DNA of 64,000 bases, taken from contig JBBECS010000050.1 in the NCBI GenBank assembly GCA_040881685.1, positions 9,779 through 73,778 on the forward strand. Direction: 5' to 3'. The translations under genes were made by a program, and so were the position numbers. This DNA comes from Acidimicrobiia bacterium. Its GTDB lineage: Bacteria > Actinomycetota > Acidimicrobiia > IMCC26256 > PALSA-555. The notes under the pieces are model-generated. The model saw only the letters and a program-made list of their open reading frames with translations. It did no database searches and was not told the origin of the DNA. Below are positions 32,995 through 45,547 of the stretch, one piece after another; positions within the stretch are counted from its first letter, which is position 1, and each line of letters starts with the position of its first letter.

Positions 32995-33633
32995 GTGGAA
33001 GAGCGCGATCAGCCGCCTACGCTGGCGATTGTGGACGATCGCCGGGTTCTCACGGTCCCGAACGCGATCTCGGTGATCCGGCTCCTCTGCGCACCGCTGT
33101 TCCTCTGGCTGCTCTTCGAGGCCGAGGAGCGCGCGGTTACGTTCGGCCTTCTCGCGGTCCTCGGCGCCACCGACTGGGTCGACGGTTGGATCGCCCGACG
33201 CTTCGACCAGGGCAGCCTCGTGGGGAAGGTGCTCGATCCCGTGGCCGACCGGATCCTCCTGCTCACCGCCGCGATCGCCTTGACCATCGACGGCGTGGTC
33301 CCCACCTGGGTGGGTGTGCTGGTCCTGGTCCGTGAGGCGCTCGTGAGCGCGGCCACGCTCGCGCTCGCCGTGGCCGGCGCAGCCAGGATCGATGTGCAAT
33401 GGGCCGGCAAAGCGGGCACGTTTGCATTGATGTTCGCGCTGCCCGGCTTCCTTCTCGTCGACGTGCTCGATCCCGGCACCGGTCGCGATGCGGCCCAAGT
33501 CACCACCTGGGTTGCCACGGCCGGGGGTCTCGTCCTCGGATACCTCGCAGTCGCGCAGTACGTGCCGATCGCTCGTGACGCGCTGCGCGCCGGTCGCAGT
33601 GCCCGCGCGGGCACGTCAGGAGCTGCGGTATGA
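32995..33633 (+). CDS. CDP-alcohol phosphatidyltransferase (PgsA2-like)
   Basis: TVPNAIS..R, TDWVDGWIAR, GKVLDPVADR. Confidence 0.92.
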   Translation: MEERDQPPTLAIVDDRRVLTVPNAISVIRLLCAPLFLWLLFEAEERAVTFGLLAVLGATDWVDGWIARRFDQGSLVGKVLDPVADRILLLTAAIALTIDGVVPTWVGVLVLVREALVSAATLALAVAGAARIDVQWAGKAGTFALMFALPGFLLVDVLDPGTGRDAAQVTTWVATAGGLVLGYLAVAQYVPIARDALRAGRSARAGTSGAAV

Positions 33634-33636
33634 AGA

Positions 33637-33698
33637 CCGAGCAGCCGACCGTCCCGCAGGGCGGCAGCGGGTATCCCGCTGCCGAGGGAGCGCGACCA
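33637..33698 (+). repeat. 62-bp structured intergenic element, copy A
   Basis: CCGAGCAGCCGA-N11-GG-CGGCAGCGGG-TAT-CCCGCTGCCG-AGGGAGCGCGACCA; matches copy B at 41259. Confidence 0.75.
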
Positions 33699-36193
33699 TG
33701 AAAGCCGTCATCCTCGCCGGGGGAGAAGGCACGCGGTTGCGTCCGCTCACGAGCAACCAGCCGAAGCCGATGATCCCCCTCGTCAACCGTCCGCTGATGG
33801 AGCACATCGTGACGCTCCTGGCTCGCCACGGCTTCGACGACGTTGTGGTGACCGTCGCGTACCTCGCCAACCAGATCCGTGACTACTTCGGCGACGGCTC
33901 CGACTTCGGGCCCCGCATGCGCTACGCGACCGATGAGACACCCCTCGGCACTGCAGGCTCGGTCCGCAACGCCGCCTCCGAGCTCGACGACACGTTTCTG
34001 GTCATCTCCGGCGACGTGCTCACCGACATCGATCTCACCGGGTTCATCAAGGCACATCGTGAGAGTGGGGCCACCGCGTCGATCGCACTCATGCGCGTCG
34101 AGGATCCGCTGGAGTTCGGGATCGTCATCACGCGCCCCGACGGCAGCGTGGAGCGGTTCCTCGAGAAGCCGAGCTGGGGCCAGGTCTTCTCCGACACCAT
34201 CAACACCGGGATCTACGTGCTCGAGCCCGAGATCTTCGACCTGATCCCAGAGGGCGAGGTCGTGGACTTCGCCCAAGACGTGTTCCCCGCAGCGCTCGAC
34301 AAGGGCCTTCGGATCCACGGCCATGTCGTCGACGGCTATTGGGAGGACATCGGCACCACCGACGCGTACCTGCGCGCGCACGCCGATGTGCTCGACGGCC
34401 GGGTCAAGGTCGACATCACCGGCTTCGAGATGAGCAAGGGGGTCTGGCTGGGCGAGGGCGCAGAGATTGATCCCGCCGCCGTGGTCGAGGGTCCGGCCGT
34501 CATCGGCGACAACTGCAAGATCGAAGCCGGAGCGAGGATCAGCGAGTACACCGTGCTCGGCACCGACGTGGTCATAAAGAACGACGCGACCCTCGAGCGT
34601 GCGCTCTGTCACGACCACGTCTACATCGGGCGCAACGCCCGGCTCCGCGGTTGTGTCATCGGACGGTCCACCGACCTGCGCGGCCATGCTCGCCTGGAGG
34701 AAGGCGTCGTGGTCGGCGACGAGTGTTTCATCGGCGAGCACGCGGTCGTCAACGCCGGCGTGCGGATCTACTCCTTCAAGACGGTTGAAGCCGAAGCCGT
34801 CGTCAACTCCTCGATCGTTTGGGAAAGTCGCGGTGCCCGAACCTTGTTCGGTCGACGGGGCGTACGAGGGCTCGCAAACGTCGACATCACGCCGGAGGTC
34901 GCGGTGCGCTTGGCCATGGCGTACGGCACCGCACTCAAACGGGGCTCGACGGTCACGACGAGCCGGGACACCAGCCGTGCGGCCCGTGCGCTGAAGCGTG
35001 CGGTGATCGGTGGCTTAAACCTTGCCGGAGCGAACGTCGAGGACGTCGAGCTCGCGACCGTCCCGGTCACCCGCTTTCAGGTTCGCAACAGCCAGGCGCG
35101 CGGTGGCATCACCGTCCGCCTCGACGCCGACGATCCAGACAGCGTCGAGATACGGATCTTCGACGCGGATGGGCGCGACATCGACGAAGGGATGCAACGA
35201 AAGCTCGAGCGGCTCCTCGCGCGCGAGGACTACCGACGTGCGTTCGCAGGGGACATCGGCGACATCGTGTACCCGCCGCGCTCGATCGAGTTCTACACGG
35301 CCGCCCTCGCGCGCTCCGTCAACGCCGAGAAGCTGCACGAACGCGCCTTCAAAGTGGTGCTCGACTACTCGTACGGCGCGGCGTCGATCGTGATGCCGTC
35401 GGTGCTGGCAAAGCTCGGCGTGGACGCGCTCGCGATCAATCCTTACGCCAGCACCGCCGCGAGCTCCGCCACCGAGCTTGACCAGCAGGTCGTCCGCATC
35501 GCCGAGCTCGTTCGCGCATCGGGAAGTCACCTCGGCTGCGTGATCTCGCCCGACGGAGAGACGATCGCCCTGGTGGACGACGAAGGTCACGCACTCTCAC
35601 GCACCGAGGCGCTCCTGGCGCTCGTCACCCTCGTGGCCGAAGCCCGCCCGCACGCCCGCATCGCGCTGCCGGTATCCGTCACACAAGCAGCCGAGCACCT
35701 CGCGATGGCGCACGGCGGGGAGGTCGTGTGGACCAAGCGCTCCGATACTCACCTCATGGAGGTGGCCGCGCTCGGTGACATCGCCTTCGCCGCATCGCCG
35801 GAGGGCGGGTTCATCTGGCCGGAGTTCCTCCCGGCCTACGACGCCTCGGCATCACTCGCGCATGTGCTCGACCTGCTCGCGACGACCGGTCGAACCCTCT
35901 CGACCGTCGTCAAAGAGCTCCCACGGGTGCACGTCGCGCACGAGACGGTGCCGACAGCCTGGGAACGGAAGGGCGCGGTGATGCGTGAGCTCGTCGAGCT
36001 CCTGACGCGTGATGCCGAGCACGAGTTCCTCCTCGTCGATGGCGTCAAGGTCCTGCGCCCGGACGGCTGGGCGCTGGTGATGCCCGATCTCGAGCAGCCG
36101 ACCACGCACGTCTGGGCCGAGGCCGAGAATGACGAGGCGGCCCACCGTCTCGCGCACGACTACGCGCTCGTGATTCGCCAGCTGCTTCGCTGA
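33698..36193 (+). CDS. Mannose-1-phosphate guanylyltransferase fused to a phosphomannomutase-like module
   Basis: ILAGGEGTRLRPLT..PKPM, hexapeptide repeats, LFGRRGVRG. Confidence 0.9.
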   Translation: MKAVILAGGEGTRLRPLTSNQPKPMIPLVNRPLMEHIVTLLARHGFDDVVVTVAYLANQIRDYFGDGSDFGPRMRYATDETPLGTAGSVRNAASELDDTFLVISGDVLTDIDLTGFIKAHRESGATASIALMRVEDPLEFGIVITRPDGSVERFLEKPSWGQVFSDTINTGIYVLEPEIFDLIPEGEVVDFAQDVFPAALDKGLRIHGHVVDGYWEDIGTTDAYLRAHADVLDGRVKVDITGFEMSKGVWLGEGAEIDPAAVVEGPAVIGDNCKIEAGARISEYTVLGTDVVIKNDATLERALCHDHVYIGRNARLRGCVIGRSTDLRGHARLEEGVVVGDECFIGEHAVVNAGVRIYSFKTVEAEAVVNSSIVWESRGARTLFGRRGVRGLANVDITPEVAVRLAMAYGTALKRGSTVTTSRDTSRAARALKRAVIGGLNLAGANVEDVELATVPVTRFQVRNSQARGGITVRLDADDPDSVEIRIFDADGRDIDEGMQRKLERLLAREDYRRAFAGDIGDIVYPPRSIEFYTAALARSVNAEKLHERAFKVVLDYSYGAASIVMPSVLAKLGVDALAINPYASTAASSATELDQQVVRIAELVRASGSHLGCVISPDGETIALVDDEGHALSRTEALLALVTLVAEARPHARIALPVSVTQAAEHLAMAHGGEVVWTKRSDTHLMEVAALGDIAFAASPEGGFIWPEFLPAYDASASLAHVLDLLATTGRTLSTVVKELPRVHVAHETVPTAWERKGAVMRELVELLTRDAEHEFLLVDGVKVLRPDGWALVMPDLEQPTTHVWAEAENDEAAHRLAHDYALVIRQLLR

Positions 36194-40795: not shown

Positions 40796-41233
40796 ATGAG
40801 CACGGACCTGCCGCACGAGCAGGTTCGGTTCGCGCACAACTCGGAGCGGCAGTTCGCGAAGCTGCTCGACTTCTACGGCATCGCGTGGGAGTACGAACCG
40901 CGCACGTTCACGTTGGAGCGTGACCGCCAGGGCAACCCGGTGCAGGCGTTCACCCCCGACTTCTACCTCCCGACGTACGACGTCTTCATCGAGATCACCA
41001 CCCTCAACCAGAAGCTCGTCACAAAGAAGAACCGAAAGGCGCGCCGGCTCCAGGAACAGCACCCGGAGGTCCAGGTGAAGGTGCTCTACCAACGCGACTA
41101 CCTCCACTTGCTGGTGAAGTACGGCCTGGAGCCACCCGAGCAGCTCAGTGACATCGGCGGGGCTCCACCGACGCGTCTCGACCTCCGCCCGGAGCCGCGT
41201 CGAGCGCCAGGATCCGCGGCCGAGACCGCCTGA
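40796..41233 (+). CDS. Hypothetical PD-(D/E)XK-like protein
   Basis: FAHNSERQFAKLLD..WEYEP..FTPDFYLP..FIEIT, resembling the T7-endonuclease-I-type core. Confidence 0.7.
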   Translation: MSTDLPHEQVRFAHNSERQFAKLLDFYGIAWEYEPRTFTLERDRQGNPVQAFTPDFYLPTYDVFIEITTLNQKLVTKKNRKARRLQEQHPEVQVKVLYQRDYLHLLVKYGLEPPEQLSDIGGAPPTRLDLRPEPRRAPGSAAETA

Positions 41234-41257
41234 GTCATCCCTCCTGAGTCATCCCTC
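41229..41257 (+). repeat. Exact 14-bp tandem duplication (CTGAGTCATCCCTC twice)
   Basis: Seen directly; overlaps the stop codon of the upstream gene. Confidence 0.85.
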
Positions 41258-41258
41258 T

Positions 41259-41320
41259 CCGAGCAGCCGAGCGCCCCGTTGGGCGGGCTCGGGTACCCCG
41301 AGCCCGAGCGAGCGCGACCA
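41259..41320 (+). repeat. 62-bp structured intergenic element, copy B
   Basis: CCGAGCAGCCGA-N11-GG-CGGGCTCGGG-TAC-CCCGAGCCCG-AGCGAGCGCGACCA. Confidence 0.75.
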
Positions 41321-41340
41321 GGGATTTAGGCTCCGACGCC

Positions 41341-42408
41341 GTGAGTCAACTGCGCCACAGCCCGCTCGACGCGGAGCATCGTGCGCTCGGCGCGCGCCTG
41401 GTCGAGTTCGGCGGCTGGGAGATGCCGATCCAGTACACGAGCGTGCTCGAAGAGCACCGCGCGTGCCGCCAGCACGCGGTGGCGTTCGACGTCTCGCATC
41501 TCGGATCGCTCCGGGTCACGGGCGCTGGCGCGCACGCACTCCTCCAACAGGCCTTCACGAACGATCTCGGTCGGATCGGGCCGGGCCGGGCTCAGTACAC
41601 CCACTTGCTCGACCCCGACGACGCCCACGTCGTGGACGACATCATCGTGTGGTGGCTCACGGACGACGACTTCATCGTCATGCCCAACGCGTCGAACACG
41701 GCTCGGATCGTCGACGCGTTGGGCGATCCGGGCGGTTGCTCGGTCGAGGACATCACCTCGTCCCGGGCGATCATCGCGGTCCAAGGTCCAGAGGCGCGCG
41801 CGAAGCTGACGGCAGCGGTGCCCGCCGCGGCCGACGTCCCGCACTTCGCCGTCGAGGCGGTCGACTACGACGGAGCGCCCGGTTTCGCAGCCGGCACCGG
41901 GTACACGGGCGAAGACGGTGTCGAGCTGCACGTGCCAGTCGAAGCTGCGGCCAGCGTGTGGCGCGCCGTGTTGGCGGGCGGTGTTCAGCCGGCCGGGCTC
42001 GGTGCTCGTGACACGCTGCGCCTCGAGGCAGGCCTCCCACTCCACGGCCACGAGCTCGGGCCGGGCATCACGCCGCTCCAGGCCGGTCTGTCCTGGGTCG
42101 TGCGGTTCGACAAGGGCGACTTCCGCGGGCGCGATGTGTTGCTCGCCGAGAAGGAGCGCGGGGTCGAGCGCCGGTTGCGCGGCCTTCTCGTCGACGGCCG
42201 CCAGATCCCACGCGAAGGCTGCGCGGTCATGATCGACGGCACGGAAGTCGGCCAGGTCACGAGCGGCAACTTCTCACCGATGCTCGAGCAGGGGATCGCG
42301 CTGGCGTTCCTCCCGCCCGACGCCGCCGAAGGCACCAAGGTCGAGATCGACGTGCGCGGCCGCACCATCTCCGCACAGGTGGTGAAGCCGCCGTTCTTCG
42401 GCCGGTGA
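41341..42408 (+). CDS. gcvT: Glycine cleavage system T protein
   Basis: [39 protein letters not shown]. Confidence 0.97.
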
Positions 42409-42444
42409 GGGGCCGCGGCTAGCCTCGGGGCTGCACAGCCGTCG

Positions 42445-42620
42445 ACCCTGGGCGGGAGAGCCCGCTGCACGCGGGCGCCGAAGGAGCAACCACTCCCCGG
42501 AACCTCTCAGGCACCAGGACCGCCCGGGCGAGGCAACGCTGGAGAGTAGGTGCGAGAGCACCTCACCGAAGGGGAAAGCCGGCGAGCGCCGGCGAATCTC
42601 TCAGGTACCGCGACAGCGGG
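42445..42620 (+). ncRNA. Tandem glycine riboswitch
   Basis: Two aptamers, each GGAGAG..CCGAAGG..CTCTCAGG, directly upstream of gcvP. Confidence 0.95.
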
Positions 42621-42676
42621 GGAGCCGAGGGTCACGACGAGTGGCTCGCTGGCACGTCGCGGACGGAGATCCCCAG

Positions 42677-45547
42677 ATGACCACACTCCCGGAGCTGGAA
42701 GAGCCCGACGCCTTCGTGCGTCGGCACATCGGTCCGGACGACGCCGAGCAGCGCGAGATGCTCGACCTGCTCGAGTACACGTCACTCGACGGGCTCACGG
42801 ACCACGCCGTGCCCGTCACGATCCGTGATCGAACACCGCTGGCGCTACCGGACGCGTGCGACGAAGTCACCGCGCTCGAGCTGTTGCACGAGCTCGTGGC
42901 GCGCAACACCATCGCGACCTCACTGATCGGCATGGGCTACTCGGGCACGGTCACGCCCAACGTGATCCTGCGCAACGTGCTCGAGAACCCAGCCTGGTAC
43001 ACCGCGTACACGCCGTATCAGCCCGAGATCTCCCAGGGTCGTCTCGAAGCGCTCCTGAACTTCCAGACCATGGTGACGGACCTGACGGGGATGGAGATCG
43101 CCAACGCCTCGCTGCTCGATGAGGGCACCGCCGCCGCCGAAGCCATGACGTTGTGCCACCGCATGAACCCCGACGCGGGCACGACGTTCTTCGTCGATGC
43201 CGACTGCCATCCTCAGACGATCGCGGTCGTCGAGACGCGCGCGATGCCGTTGGGGCTCGACGTTCGCGTCGGTAATGCCGAGGCCGACGTCCCGCCCGAC
43301 GGGGTGTTCGGCGCGTTGATCCAGCAGCCCGGCAGCAGCGGCGTGCTGCGCGACCTCAGCCCCCTCGTCGACCGCCTGCACGGCCAAGGCGCGCTCGCGG
43401 CGGTCGCGGCCGATCTCCTCGCGCTGGCGGTGATCGTTCCGCCGGGGGAGCAGGGCGCCGACGTCGTCGTCGGGTCATCGCAACGGTTCGGCGTGCCCCT
43501 TGGCTACGGCGGCCCGCACGCCGCGTTCATCGCCACCCGCAGCGAGTACCAGCGGAGCCTGCCGGGTCGCCTGGTCGGCGTCTCGGTGGACTCGGGCGGC
43601 CGCCCCGCGTTCCGGCTCGCGCTCCAGACTCGGGAGCAGCACATTCGTCGTGAGAAGGCGACGAGCAACATCTGCACCGCGCAGGTGCTGCTGGCCGTGA
43701 TGGCCGGGCTCTACGGCGTGTACCACGGACCCGACGGGATCCGCGCGATCGCGCGCCGAATCCACCGGTTGACCGCTGTGCTGGCCACCGGGCTGCGCGA
43801 CGCCGGGATCGACGTGATGCACGACGCCTTCTTCGACACCGTGACCGTGCGTGTGCCTGGTCGAGCGGCGGCGATCGCCACCGGTGCGCGCGCACGCGAA
43901 ATCAACCTCCGCGAGGTGAACCGAGACACGCTCGGCATCTCACTGGACGAGACGACCACCCGCCGCGTGGTGCAACAGGTGTGGGAGGCATTCGGGATCT
44001 CGGCCGCGGTCGACGACGTCGACGCTCACACCGAGGTTGCGATCCCTGCGGCCCTTGCACGCACGTCCGACTTCATGACCCACCCGGTGTTCCACTCGCA
44101 CCGTTCGGAGACCGCGATGCTGCGCTACCTCCGACGGCTCGCGGATCGCGATCTCGCGCTGGACCGCACGATGATCCCGCTCGGTTCGTGCACGATGAAG
44201 CTGAACGCGACCGTGGAGATGATCCCGGTCACCTGGCCGGGGTTCGGGTCGATCCACCCGTTTGCGCCGGTCGACCAGGTCGGCGGCTACCTCGAGCTGT
44301 TCGCCGACCTCGAGACGTGGTTGTGCGAGATCACCGGGTACGACGCGGTGTCGCTCCAGCCCAACGCGGGCTCACAGGGGGAGCTCGCCGGTCTCCTCGC
44401 GATCCGCTCGTACCACCGCAGCAGGGGGGAGGAGCACCGCAACGTCTGTCTCATCCCGGCATCCGCGCACGGGACGAACGCGGCGAGCGCAGCCATGGCC
44501 GCCATGCGCGTGGTCGTCGTGAGCTGCGACCACCACGGCAACGTCGATGTCGACGACTTGAAGACCAAGGCCCACGAGCACGCCGACACGCTGGCCGCGC
44601 TGATGGTCACATACCCATCGACGCACGGCGTCTTCGAGGAGCAGATCCGAGACGTGTGCGCGGTCGTGCACGAGCACGGCGGCCAGGTGTACCTCGACGG
44701 CGCCAACCTGAACGCGCTCGTCGGCGTCGCGAAGCCGGGACACTTCGGTGCCGACGTATCGCACCTCAACCTGCACAAGACCTTCTGCATCCCTCACGGC
44801 GGGGGTGGACCCGGCGTCGGACCGGTGGCAGTGCGCGCGCACCTTGCGCCGTTCCTGCCCAACCACCCACTCGTGGCCGAAGCCGGACCAGCGACCGGCG
44901 TGGGCCCGATCTCCGCGGCGCCGTGGGGATCGGCCGGCATCCTGCCGATCTCGTGGGCGTACATCCGCTTGATGGGCGGGCCCGGACTGCTGCGCGCCAC
45001 CCAGGTGGCGATCCTGAGCGCCAACTACGTCGCCCGGCGGCTCCACGAGCACTACCCGGTCCTCTACGCGGGCCCCGAAGGACTCGTCGCCCACGAGTGC
45101 ATCCTCGACCTGCGCGCGATCACTCACGACACCGGCGTCACTGCCGAGGACGTGGCGAAGCGGCTCATCGACTTCGGCTTCCACGCGCCGACGATGTCGT
45201 TCCCGGTCGCAGGCACGCTCATGGTCGAGCCGACCGAGTCGGAGAGCAAGCACGAGCTGGATCGCTTCTGCGACGCGATGATCGCCATCCGGTCGGAGAT
45301 CGGGCGGGTCGAGCGAGGGGAGTGCTCCGTCGAGGACAGTCCCCTGCGTCACGCGCCGCACCCGGCCGGCGACGTCGTCACCGACCAATGGTCCCGCGCG
45401 TACTCGCGTGACGAGGCCGCCTTCCCAACCGGCGGATCGCCCGATGACAAGTACTGGCCACCGGTCAGCCGCATCGACAACGCGTACGGGGACCGCAACC
45501 TCTTCTGCTCATGCCCGCCGATTGAGGCCTACGCCGAAAGGGAATGA
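42677..45547 (+). CDS. gcvP: Glycine dehydrogenase (decarboxylating), P protein
   Basis: [51 protein letters not shown]. Confidence 0.98.

What the first reader, a model, noticed from the sequence alone, without database searches (positions are those of the whole stretch)
33637..33698. Unnamed 62-bp structured element in two copies (33637 and 41259) with compensatory stem changes
Seen: both copies are exactly 62 bp, intergenic and on the same strand. They share CCGAGCAGCCGA at the 5' end and AG(G/C)GAGCGCGACCA at the 3' end. Each has a perfect 10-bp stem closed by GGG-TAY-CCC, and the stem interior differs but stays paired (CAGC/GCTG versus GCTC/GAGC). A smaller overlapping hairpin (CGCCC/GGGCG) precedes it. 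Copy A ends on the A of the mannose-1-P guanylyltransferase ATG; copy B ends 20 nt before gcvT. Inference: covariation with fixed length implies selection on structure. It may be a REP/MITE-like element mobilised by an HUH (RAYT-type) transposase, or a cis-regulatory RNA/ssDNA motif. I cannot match it to a named family.
Basis: partly seen in the sequence, partly recalled or inferred. Interest (0 to 1): 0.7.

Follow-up and report, generated by a model that had tools for sequence, protein, structure and literature searches.

The report
Hairpin repeat family at gene starts
The two 62-base copies belong to an apparently undescribed family of roughly 50 to 90 short hairpin-forming repeats per genome, found across one order of Acidimicrobiia, that are gained and lost immediately upstream of gene starts; they combine features of mycobacterial MIRU and enterobacterial REP repeats and are not a dedicated regulatory RNA.

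Summary
Its genome, an Acidimicrobiales MAG from sediment, holds 47 clear copies and about 90 covariance-model hits. Matches occur in 26 of 41 relatives, and in a 201-genome sample of the class all 17 positives lie in this order.

The 10-bp hairpin is strongly supported. It is 95% paired in 38 own-genome copies and 99% paired in 69 copies from other genomes. Double changes are four to five times more frequent than in shuffles.

Copies lie between genes, mostly in the sense direction (26:6), and often within 30 nt of a downstream start. Every copy surveyed in congeners is missing from at least one of them.

- **Copy A:** a 68-nt insertion into an RTGA stop/start overlap. It duplicates that overlap, creating a 23-codon relay frame that is kept open in three genomes. 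This is the MIRU principle.
- **Copy B:** lies 6 nt upstream of gcvT's own -10 box, which serves a leaderless start. It is absent from the five relatives aligned across this spacer and from 80 more distant gcvT loci.

I found no Rfam match, no plasmid or phage match, and no RAYT gene. The downstream genes are unrelated housekeeping genes. My verdict is a new family of a known general kind. How it moves is unknown.

The parts
33637..33698 (+). Copy A of the repeat (62-nt core)
   Evidence: R1 score 78.8 bits. Orthologous copies are present in G004 and G008 and absent in G001, G002, G003, G005 and G009.
33630..33701 (+). 23-codon relay frame through copy A. Its ATG (33630-33632) overlaps the upstream gene's TGA (33631-33633). 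Its own TGA (33699-33701) overlaps the manC ATG (33698-33700).
   Evidence: In three occupied genomes two RTGA lie exactly 68 nt apart with an open frame between them. In five empty genomes there is a single RTGA.
33619..33622 (+). GGAG ribosome-binding site, native to the locus, 7 nt before the relay ATG
   Evidence: Read from the sequence. Empty relatives have a purine-rich ribosome-binding stretch (GGAG, GGGAG, GGAGG, GAGG or GGGG) at the same distance before manC.
33653..33661 (+). Hairpin 1 of copy A: CCC-GCA-GGG (GNA triloop)
   Evidence: The outer pair covaries between C-G and G-C across genomes.
33662..33684 (+). Hairpin 2 of copy A: 10-bp stem with a TAT loop
   Evidence: Two compensated pair changes separate it from the orthologous copy in G008.
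33684..33690 (+). GAGGGAG inside copy A, 7 nt before the manC ATG. The family consensus here is GAGCGAG; the C-to-G change gives a Shine-Dalgarno-like site.
   Evidence: Alignment A1. The same change is present in the orthologous G008 copy but not in G004. A ribosome-binding function is inferred.
41259..41320 (+). Copy B of the repeat (62-nt core)
   Evidence: 78.4 bits. The five relatives aligned across this spacer (G001, G002, G003, G005, G008) lack it, as do 80 more distant gcvT loci.
41275..41283 (+). Hairpin 1 of copy B: CCC-GTT-GGG
   Evidence: Alignment A1 and pair counts.
41284..41306 (+). Hairpin 2 of copy B: 10-bp stem with a TAC loop
41327..41332 (+). TAGGCT, gcvT's own -10 box, 8 nt before the GTG start at 41341 (leaderless). 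It is not part of the repeat.
   Evidence: TAGGCT followed by 7-8 nt and a start codon is conserved in G001, G002, G003 and G005, which lack the repeat. Genome-wide, TANNNT lies 6-9 nt before 393 of 2901 predicted starts.
41229..41256 (+). Two tandem copies of the 14-nt unit CCTGAGTCATCCCT just 5' of copy B. The first contains the upstream stop codon (41231-41233).
   Evidence: Read from the sequence. G001 has a single CCTGAC there. Its relation to the insertion is unknown.

Best explanation
Both copies belong to a family of short (about 62-68 nt), non-coding, non-autonomous interspersed repeats specific to one order of Acidimicrobiia.

**Anatomy.** Each unit has a conserved 5' block ((R)TGGAGCAGCCGAGCG) and a small CCC-GNA-GGG hairpin. 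A 10-bp hairpin follows; its middle is free to vary provided it stays paired and its top is GGGTAYCCC. The unit ends with a conserved 3' block (CGAGCGAGCGCGACCA, often followed by TG).

**Behaviour.** Units are inserted and lost over evolutionary time at gene boundaries, mostly in the sense direction and immediately upstream of a gene's start signals. They persist there because their layout does little harm to expression.

**Copy A.** This is a 68-nt insertion into the 4-nt stop/start overlap (RTGA) between the upstream gene and manC, and it duplicates that overlap. A ribosome finishing the upstream gene, or binding the native GGAG, can translate a 23-codon frame through the hairpin. It then terminates on a TGA that overlaps the manC ATG, so translational coupling is relayed. 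A GAGGGAG has also arisen inside the element.

**Copy B.** This copy was inserted 6 nt upstream of the native -10 box of the leaderless gcvT promoter, leaving the -10 box and the start codon intact.

**Shown versus inferred.** Shown: family size and taxonomic range, stem covariation, sense bias, presence/absence at orthologous sites, and the duplicated overlap with a conserved open relay frame. Inferred: that the relay frame is translated, that the hairpin is needed for spread or tolerated as RNA, and that a trans-acting enzyme, still unidentified, moves the element.
For: **Family size and range**
- 47 copies by iterated nhmmer and about 90 covariance-model hits in the genome.
- 10-112 copies in most of the 26 positive genomes among 41 relatives (a few have only 1-5 hits).
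- 17 of 201 genomes sampled from the class are positive, and all 17 lie in the same order.

**Structure**
- In the own genome, hairpin 2 is 95% paired, with 55 double-change cells against 9.9 in shuffles (0 of 500 shuffles reach it). Slid-partner controls give 35-57% pairing.
- In 69 copies from other genomes, pairing is 99%, with 130 double changes against 31.
- The orthologous copies at site A differ by two compensated pairs.

**Position and orientation**
- 26 sense against 6 antisense copies between co-directional genes (p = 0.0005).
- 23 of 47 copies have a same-strand start within -6 to +60 nt of their 3' end.
- CCA followed by TG occurs in 14 of 45 copies against a 5.6% background (p = 9e-8).

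**Turnover**
- Site A is occupied in 3 genomes and empty in 5.
- Site B is occupied only in this genome.
- At all 13 further sites, at least one congener lacks the copy, and the patterns disagree between sites.
- One site carries an inverted copy in G003, and another a half-deleted remnant in G001.

**Relay**
- Five empty genomes have one RTGA junction. Three occupied genomes have two RTGA exactly 68 nt apart with an open 23-codon frame.
- Start or stop letters are also duplicated at the hemL site (GTGA/ATGA) and the uvrA site (GATG).
- Tandem pairs with a 68-nt period recur in six genomes.
- MIRUs are described as inserting at start codons with a -4 coupled ORF (PMC12548453).

**Not a regulon**
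- Downstream genes include uvrA, an acetylglutamate kinase, GDPD, hemL, pgk, tyrS, aspartokinase, transketolase, fpg and manC.
Against: - No transposase or other mobilising enzyme was identified, and no autonomous longer version was seen.
- Target duplications are short and differ between sites (RTGAA, GTGA, GATG, CTAG). Many copies show none, so the insertion mechanism is not defined.
- Dispersed copies within this genome are at most 93% identical, with a median of 70%, so there is no sign of recent activity.
- Contigs from the source metagenome show no form lacking either copy. Contigs drop rare variants, so this is weak evidence.
- No RNA data exist for this organism. Transcription and translation of the relay frame are therefore untested.
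- The conserved flanks and in-situ compensatory changes could equally reflect a host-level function of the folded RNA.
- Gene calls came from my own crude caller, which made at least one error at a copy counted as antisense.
- Alignment A5 was fitted to the model, which inflates its pairing percentage.
Confidence: 0.72

Rival explanations
1. A host-beneficial cis-acting RNA module. The folded hairpins in the mRNA would act as a stabiliser, a processing site, or a translation or transcription insulator between cistrons. The host would retain copies for that function, and mobility would be incidental or long past.
For: - Strong sense bias.
- Orientation follows the local gene rather than the regional majority strand.
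- Wobble asymmetry: G.T 18 against A.C 6 on the sense strand.
- Compensatory changes between orthologous copies.
- The flanks are about as conserved as neighbouring coding DNA.
Against: - Copies are not conserved at orthologous sites even within the genus.
- Empty sites work with ordinary junctions.
- The downstream genes share no function.
- Six copies are antisense, and one site carries opposite orientations in two species.
- There is no T-tract, so the hairpin is not a classical terminator.
Confidence: 0.17
2. A REP/REPIN-type element mobilised as single-stranded DNA by a RAYT (Y1 HUH) transposase.
For: - It is a G+C-rich hairpin repeat in extragenic DNA.
- C-GNA-G mini-hairpins are known to be very stable in single-stranded DNA (my own knowledge, not tested here).
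- Stems are kept paired.
Against: - PF01797 is absent from G000 (100% complete) and from G001, G002, G004, G008, G009 and G029 (112 copies), while 6 of 14 control genomes gave hits.
- There is no conserved GTAG or CGTC tag at the foot of the hairpin (alignment).
- Copies are not arranged as inverted pairs.
- Orientation follows genes rather than the regional strand.
Confidence: 0.04
3. A family of genes for a small 21-23 aa peptide (consensus M-E-Q-P-S-V-P-x-G-G-x-G-Y-P-x-x-E-R-A-R-P). The DNA repeat would be a by-product of selection on the peptide.
For: - The frame is open and bounded by start and stop codons at site A in three genomes.
- The same is true in the tandem array at C36:301738 and at the uvrA site.
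Against: - Length differences between copies are not multiples of three (62, 64, 66, 57 nt), so the frame is not preserved across the family.
- Variation is concentrated in paired stem positions and is compensatory, not synonymous.
- Many copies lack any start codon or stop early.
Confidence: 0.03

Closest known systems
MIRU (mycobacterial interspersed repetitive units)
   Same: Both are short (tens of nt) interspersed repeats lying between genes of operons, in the same direction as the genes. Both insert at start codons so that a small internal ORF becomes coupled to the downstream gene with a -4 overlap (PMC12548453). Both are sometimes tandem, with a period of 3n-1 (68 nt here). Neither has a known transposase. 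Site A reproduces this design exactly.
   Different: The host class differs (Acidimicrobiia, not Mycobacterium). I did not compare the sequences directly. This family carries two hairpins with extensive stem covariation, which is not a defining MIRU trait to my knowledge. Only a minority of copies form complete relay frames. Several sit against the -10 boxes of leaderless promoters or between convergent genes.
REP / BIME / REPIN elements of proteobacteria
   Same: Both are G+C-rich imperfect palindromes in tens to hundreds of extragenic copies. In both, stems are kept paired, copies are gained and lost between strains or species, and copies are occasionally found inside genes.
   Different: No RAYT gene is present. 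There is no GTAG or CGTC tag and no inverted-pair (REPIN/BIME) arrangement. Long conserved single-stranded flanks are part of the unit here. Copies prefer the 5' side of genes and the sense strand rather than 3' ends.
MITEs (e.g. Correia, RUP, Nezha)
   Same: Both are small, non-autonomous, dispersed and polymorphic in presence. Both sometimes bring or alter expression signals next to genes.
   Different: There are no terminal inverted repeats: the two ends are unrelated and partly direct repeats of GCCGAGCG. There is no uniform target duplication. No parent insertion sequence was found.
Rickettsia palindromic elements (RPE)
   Same: Both are palindromic repeats that can sit in frame within reading frames and be tolerated. 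One copy here lies inside a DnaE-like gene.
   Different: RPEs are longer and mostly intragenic. This family is overwhelmingly intergenic.

Membership tests
MIRU-like relay repeats (functional class) | Located between co-directional genes, in the same orientation as the genes | tested here: met
   26 sense against 6 antisense in co-directional pairs (p = 0.0005). Copy A lies between two + strand genes.
MIRU-like relay repeats (functional class) | Inserted at a start codon, with an internal ORF whose ends overlap the stop and start codons of the flanking genes (-4 spacing) | tested here: met
   Met for copy A in three genomes. Also met for the tandem array at C36:301738 and the uvrA copy. Not met for copy B or for most other copies.
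MIRU-like relay repeats (functional class) | Tandem arrays whose period keeps the chain of overlapping ORFs (3n-1) | tested here: met
   A 68-nt period is seen in G000, G001, G003, G008, G019 and G063. G036 has 69 nt and G021 has 70 nt.
MIRU (the mycobacterial sequence family itself) | Sequence homology to the M. tuberculosis MIRU consensus | not tested
Model R1 matches only within one order of Acidimicrobiia, but no Mycobacterium genome was searched, so sequence relatedness to MIRUs remains untested.
REP/REPIN | Associated RAYT (Y1 HUH transposase) gene in the genome | tested here: not met
   PF01797 gives 0 hits in G000 and in 37 of 41 relatives, while the control genomes are positive.
REP/REPIN | Conserved GTAG or CGTC tetranucleotide at the foot of the palindrome, with inverted-pair arrangement | tested here: not met
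   Alignments A1 and A5 show no invariant GTAG. CGTC occurs 5' of hairpin 1 in only about half of the copies. Copies are single or direct tandem, not inverted pairs.
MITE | Terminal inverted repeats and a fixed-length target-site duplication | tested here: not met
   The two ends are not complementary. Duplicated letters vary between 4 and 5 nt with different sequences, or are absent.
Any Rfam family (riboswitch, leader, sRNA) | Score at or above a family's gathering threshold | tested here: not met
   A gathering-threshold scan of the window finds only a tRNA and two glycine aptamers. E-value scans over both copies give only chance hits of 17 bits or less.
Intrinsic terminator | G+C-rich hairpin followed by a T/U tract | tested here: not met
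   The consensus scan flags neither copy. The 3' flank is CGAGCGAGCGCGACCA.

The most novel reading that the evidence does not exclude
The family may be, or may recently have been, an active order-wide mobile cassette. It would home to the first few bases of genes: stop/start overlaps, ribosome-binding sites and the -10 boxes of leaderless promoters. An enzyme unrelated to RAYT or classical DDE transposases would move it, recognising the C-GNA-G mini-hairpin and the GGGTAYCCC-topped hairpin in single-stranded nucleic acid. Promoter or junction DNA melted during transcription or replication is one possible substrate. The element's own start codon, open frame, stop codon and Shine-Dalgarno-like tail would make each insertion nearly neutral.
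Probability: 0.2. Interest if true: 0.75.

Novelty: new variant of a known kind. Interest (0 to 1): 0.55.

Why it matters
- **Annotation.** Acidimicrobiia are abundant in soils, sediments and waters but are almost all uncultured. Their genomes evidently carry a sizeable repeat family that gene callers and RNA-family scans do not recognise. These repeats break assemblies (contigs fork inside them). They also create spurious or real mini-ORFs and shift apparent gene starts.
- **Biology.** The family is a second, independent example of the MIRU solution, in which a repeat inserts into a stop/start overlap and relays translation. Here it is combined with a REP-like hairpin maintained by compensatory change. 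That gives a natural data set for asking how such elements move without a known transposase. It can also address how leaderless promoters tolerate replacement of their upstream DNA.
- **Practical use.** Presence/absence at defined junctions could serve as strain or species markers, as MIRU-VNTR typing does for mycobacteria.

Tried and rejected
- **Rfam.** Gathering-threshold and E-value scans found no family.
- **Plasmid and phage collections.** No match.
- **RAYT/Y1 transposase.** Absent.
No covariation.
- **Outer helix proposed by RNAalifold (CGAGCG with GCGCG).** The apparent covariation (GAACG with GAGTGAG) is a subfamily signature and not a helix. The columns do not form a consistent antiparallel pairing.
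- **TAGGCT as part of the element, or an outward promoter carried by it.** Rejected because empty orthologous sites already have the same -10 box at the same distance from the start.
- **The element's 3' end as a -35 box.** The spacing to the -10 box is 5-7 nt, far too short.
- **Replication-strand bias as the cause of orientation bias.** Copies follow the local gene even where the regional majority strand is opposite. This is a weak proxy on draft contigs.
- **Search for a long autonomous version.** Only variants of 80-100 nt with an extra hairpin module were found.
- **RNA evidence.** No RNA run holds the locus.
- **Insertion polymorphism within the source population.** No skip joints were seen, but only assembler contigs were available.
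- **MAFFT alignment of occupied against empty sites.** Misleading for several sites, so I replaced it with flank-anchored local alignments.

Full report
**1. The observation**

Both 62-nt stretches are present as described, on the + strand (33637-33698 and 41259-41320). They are identical at 50 of 62 positions. Each folds into a perfect 10-bp stem topped by GGG-TAY-CCC, at 33662-33684 and 41284-41306.

The folding energies are only 1.3-2.1 SD below shuffles, which is unremarkable in 68% G+C DNA. Structure therefore has to be argued from comparison between copies.

Copy A ends on the A of the ATG of an NTP_transferase/hexapeptide (manC-type) gene. Copy B ends 20 nt before the gcvT GTG.

**2. 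The element is a large family, not a pair**

The window lies on contig C50 of a 3.11-Mb, 54-contig, 67.9% G+C genome. The genome is an Acidimicrobiia/Acidimicrobiales MAG from sediment.

- A loose pattern search found ten further copies at once.
- Iterated nhmmer converged on 47 copies.
- A covariance model built from 38 of them (R1) gives about 90 hits at E <= 0.01 in the genome.
- R1 matches 26 of 41 relatives, spread over several families of the order, with 10-112 copies in most of the positive genomes (a few have only 1-5 hits).
- In an even sample of 201 genomes of the class, 17 are positive and all belong to the same order.
- Within the order the distribution among genera is patchy.
- Nothing similar exists in Rfam 15 or in the plasmid and phage collections. 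I found no description in the held literature.

**3. Anatomy**

The consensus is (R)TGGAGCAGCCGAGCG - yCCC-GNA-GGG - CGG-NNNNN-GGGTAYCCC-NNNNN-CCG - AGCGAGCGCGACCA(TG).

*Main hairpin.*
- In 38 own-genome copies it is 95% paired, with 55 cells changed on both sides against 9.9 in shuffles (0 of 500 shuffles reach it). Sliding the partner column by 1-3 positions gives 35-57% pairing.
- In 69 copies taken from ten other genomes it is 99% paired, with 130 double changes against 31. That alignment was fitted to the model, which favours pairing.
- There are 28 different stem sequences among the 38 own-genome copies.

*Small hairpin.* It is CCC/GGG closed by a GNA triloop, plus one outer pair that switches between C-G and G-C across genomes.

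*Strand asymmetry.* Mismatches are G.T 18 times and A.C 6 times on the sense strand (p = 0.023). This is a modest hint that the sense strand, as RNA or as single-stranded DNA, is the one that folds.

**4. Where copies sit**

I called genes with a simple codon-usage caller (2929 genes, 92% coding).

- Copies are intergenic. Between co-directional genes 26 are sense and 6 antisense (p = 0.0005).
- At least one "antisense" copy is a gene-calling error. By eye, a formiminotransferase-like start follows C28:68169 in the sense direction.
- Orientation follows the local gene even where most neighbouring genes lie on the other strand.
- Of 47 copies, 23 have a same-strand start codon within -6 to +60 nt of the 3' end, mostly within 30 nt.
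- CCA is followed directly by TG in 14 of 45 copies, against 5.6% genome-wide (p = 9e-8).
- The downstream genes are unrelated housekeeping genes: uvrA, an acetylglutamate kinase, GDPD, hemL, pgk, tyrS, aspartokinase, transketolase, fpg and manC. A riboswitch-like regulon is therefore excluded.

**5. Copy A is a relay insertion into a stop/start overlap**

In five relatives without the element (G001, G002, G003, G005, G009), the upstream gene's TGA overlaps the manC start as RTGA, preceded by a purine-rich ribosome-binding stretch.

In the three genomes with the element (G000, G004 of the same genus, and G008 of another genus) there are two RTGA exactly 68 nt apart. The upstream gene ends on the first. 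From that RTG a 23-codon frame, (M/V)K.EQ...P.G.G.YP..E.ARP*, runs through both hairpins. It stops on a TGA that overlaps the manC start.

The three copies share diagnostic variants, so they are orthologous. They nevertheless differ by two fully compensated base pairs in the main stem.

G000 and G008 also carry GAGGGAG where the family has GAGCGAG. This creates a Shine-Dalgarno-like site 7 nt before the manC start.

Other evidence for the same design:
- The same duplication of start or stop letters appears at the hemL site (GTGA/ATGA) and the uvrA site (GATG). A convergent-gene site shows CTAG.
- Direct tandem pairs recur with a 68-nt period (3n-1) in six genomes. That period keeps a chain of ATGA-linked mini-frames.

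**6. Copy B sits against a leaderless promoter**

TAGGCT followed by 7-8 nt and the start codon is conserved upstream of gcvT in G001, G002, G003 and G005, none of which has the element.

Genome-wide, TANNNT lies 6-9 nt before 393 of 2901 predicted starts, against about 5 per position elsewhere. Leaderless transcription from such -10 boxes is therefore common here, and TAGGCT is gcvT's own signal.

Copy B was inserted 6 nt upstream of it. The five relatives aligned across this spacer lack it, as do 80 more distant gcvT loci. The copies before the GDPD and tyrS genes have the same placement, 5-6 nt upstream of a native -10 box.

**7. Turnover**

I searched joined flanks of 13 further G000 copies in three congeners and aligned the recovered sites.

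- Every copy is missing from at least one congener.
- The patterns disagree between sites: G000+G004; G000+G001; G000+G003; G000 alone.
- At one site G003 carries the element in the opposite orientation while G004 is empty.
- At another site G001 keeps only a 3' remnant.

This indicates repeated gain and loss rather than one ancient set of insertions. On the other hand, dispersed copies in G000 are at most 93% identical. The source metagenome contigs also show no form lacking either copy. There is thus no evidence of current activity.

**8. What moves it**

This is unknown.

- PF01797 (Y1/RAYT) is absent from G000 and from almost all carriers, while the control genomes are positive.
- The ends are not inverted repeats, and the target duplications are short and varied.
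- No kilobase-scale version bounded by the element's ends was seen. Only 80-100-nt variants with an extra hairpin module were found.

**9. Verdict**

It is an order-wide, apparently undescribed family of hairpin repeats that combines a REP-like stem maintained by compensatory change with MIRU-like placement at gene starts.

- Copy A is a clean relay mini-ORF.
- Copy B is a promoter-proximal insertion.
- The RAYT idea and the regulatory-RNA idea are not supported.

Earlier notes from this scan describe the same family from another window of this genome and reach a similar reading. I treated them as leads and repeated the key tests on different copies.

Noticed in passing
window 42443-42626: Two tandem glycine riboswitch aptamers (65 and 55 bits) lie between gcvT (stop at 42408) and the 968-aa glycine dehydrogenase ORF (42641-45547). 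In this genome the riboswitch therefore controls gcvP, while gcvT has its own leaderless promoter.
   Followed up: no
window 41229-41256: A 14-nt unit, CCTGAGTCATCCCT, occurs twice in tandem immediately 5' of copy B. The first copy contains the stop codon of the upstream ORF. The congener G001 has a single CCTGAC there. It could be a slippage event or a footprint of the insertion.
   Followed up: partly
whole genome (G000): TANNNT (most often TAGCCT, TACGCT, TACCCT or TAGGCT) lies 6-9 nt upstream of about 13.5% of predicted start codons. This is a strong signature of leaderless mRNAs in this Acidimicrobiales genome.
   Followed up: partly
G000 C1:23853-23917 (outside the window): One copy lies inside a DnaE-like reading frame. 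Three congeners have 23 nt where G000 has 65 nt. The difference is 42 nt, or 14 codons, so the insertion is in frame.
   Followed up: partly
L125 (G003:C110:2091-2420) versus G000 C36:179444: The same intergenic spacer holds the element in opposite orientations in two congeners and is empty in a third (L124). This suggests recurrent insertion at one spot.
   Followed up: partly
L117 (G001:C10:52615-52973) versus G000 C28:69295: G001 keeps only the 3' part of an element (GCCGCCGAGCAGAGCGAGTGCGACC) at the orthologous site, showing decay by internal deletion.
   Followed up: partly
G000 C36:301738-302015 (outside the window): A tandem array of at least three 68-nt units lies upstream of an amino-acid kinase (argB-like) gene. 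Each unit reads ATG...CCATGA. The array is interrupted by a run of N, so the assembler could not resolve the copy number.
   Followed up: partly
G000: 5' flanks of about ten copies (e.g. C53:144583, C39:26939, C28:69295, C28:68169): A second conserved module, GCGAGCGAGCGAAGCGAGYGAGCTCGC, directly precedes some copies. Other genomes have their own 5' extensions: GATTGC in G029 and GTCGAGCGAG in G063. The family is therefore modular, with lineage-specific ends.
   Followed up: no
window 41278-41322 in runs X1-X4: Assembler contigs from the source metagenomes fork or end inside the 3' half of copy B, and summed depth rises three- to four-fold there. The repeat fragments short-read assemblies of these organisms.
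   Followed up: no
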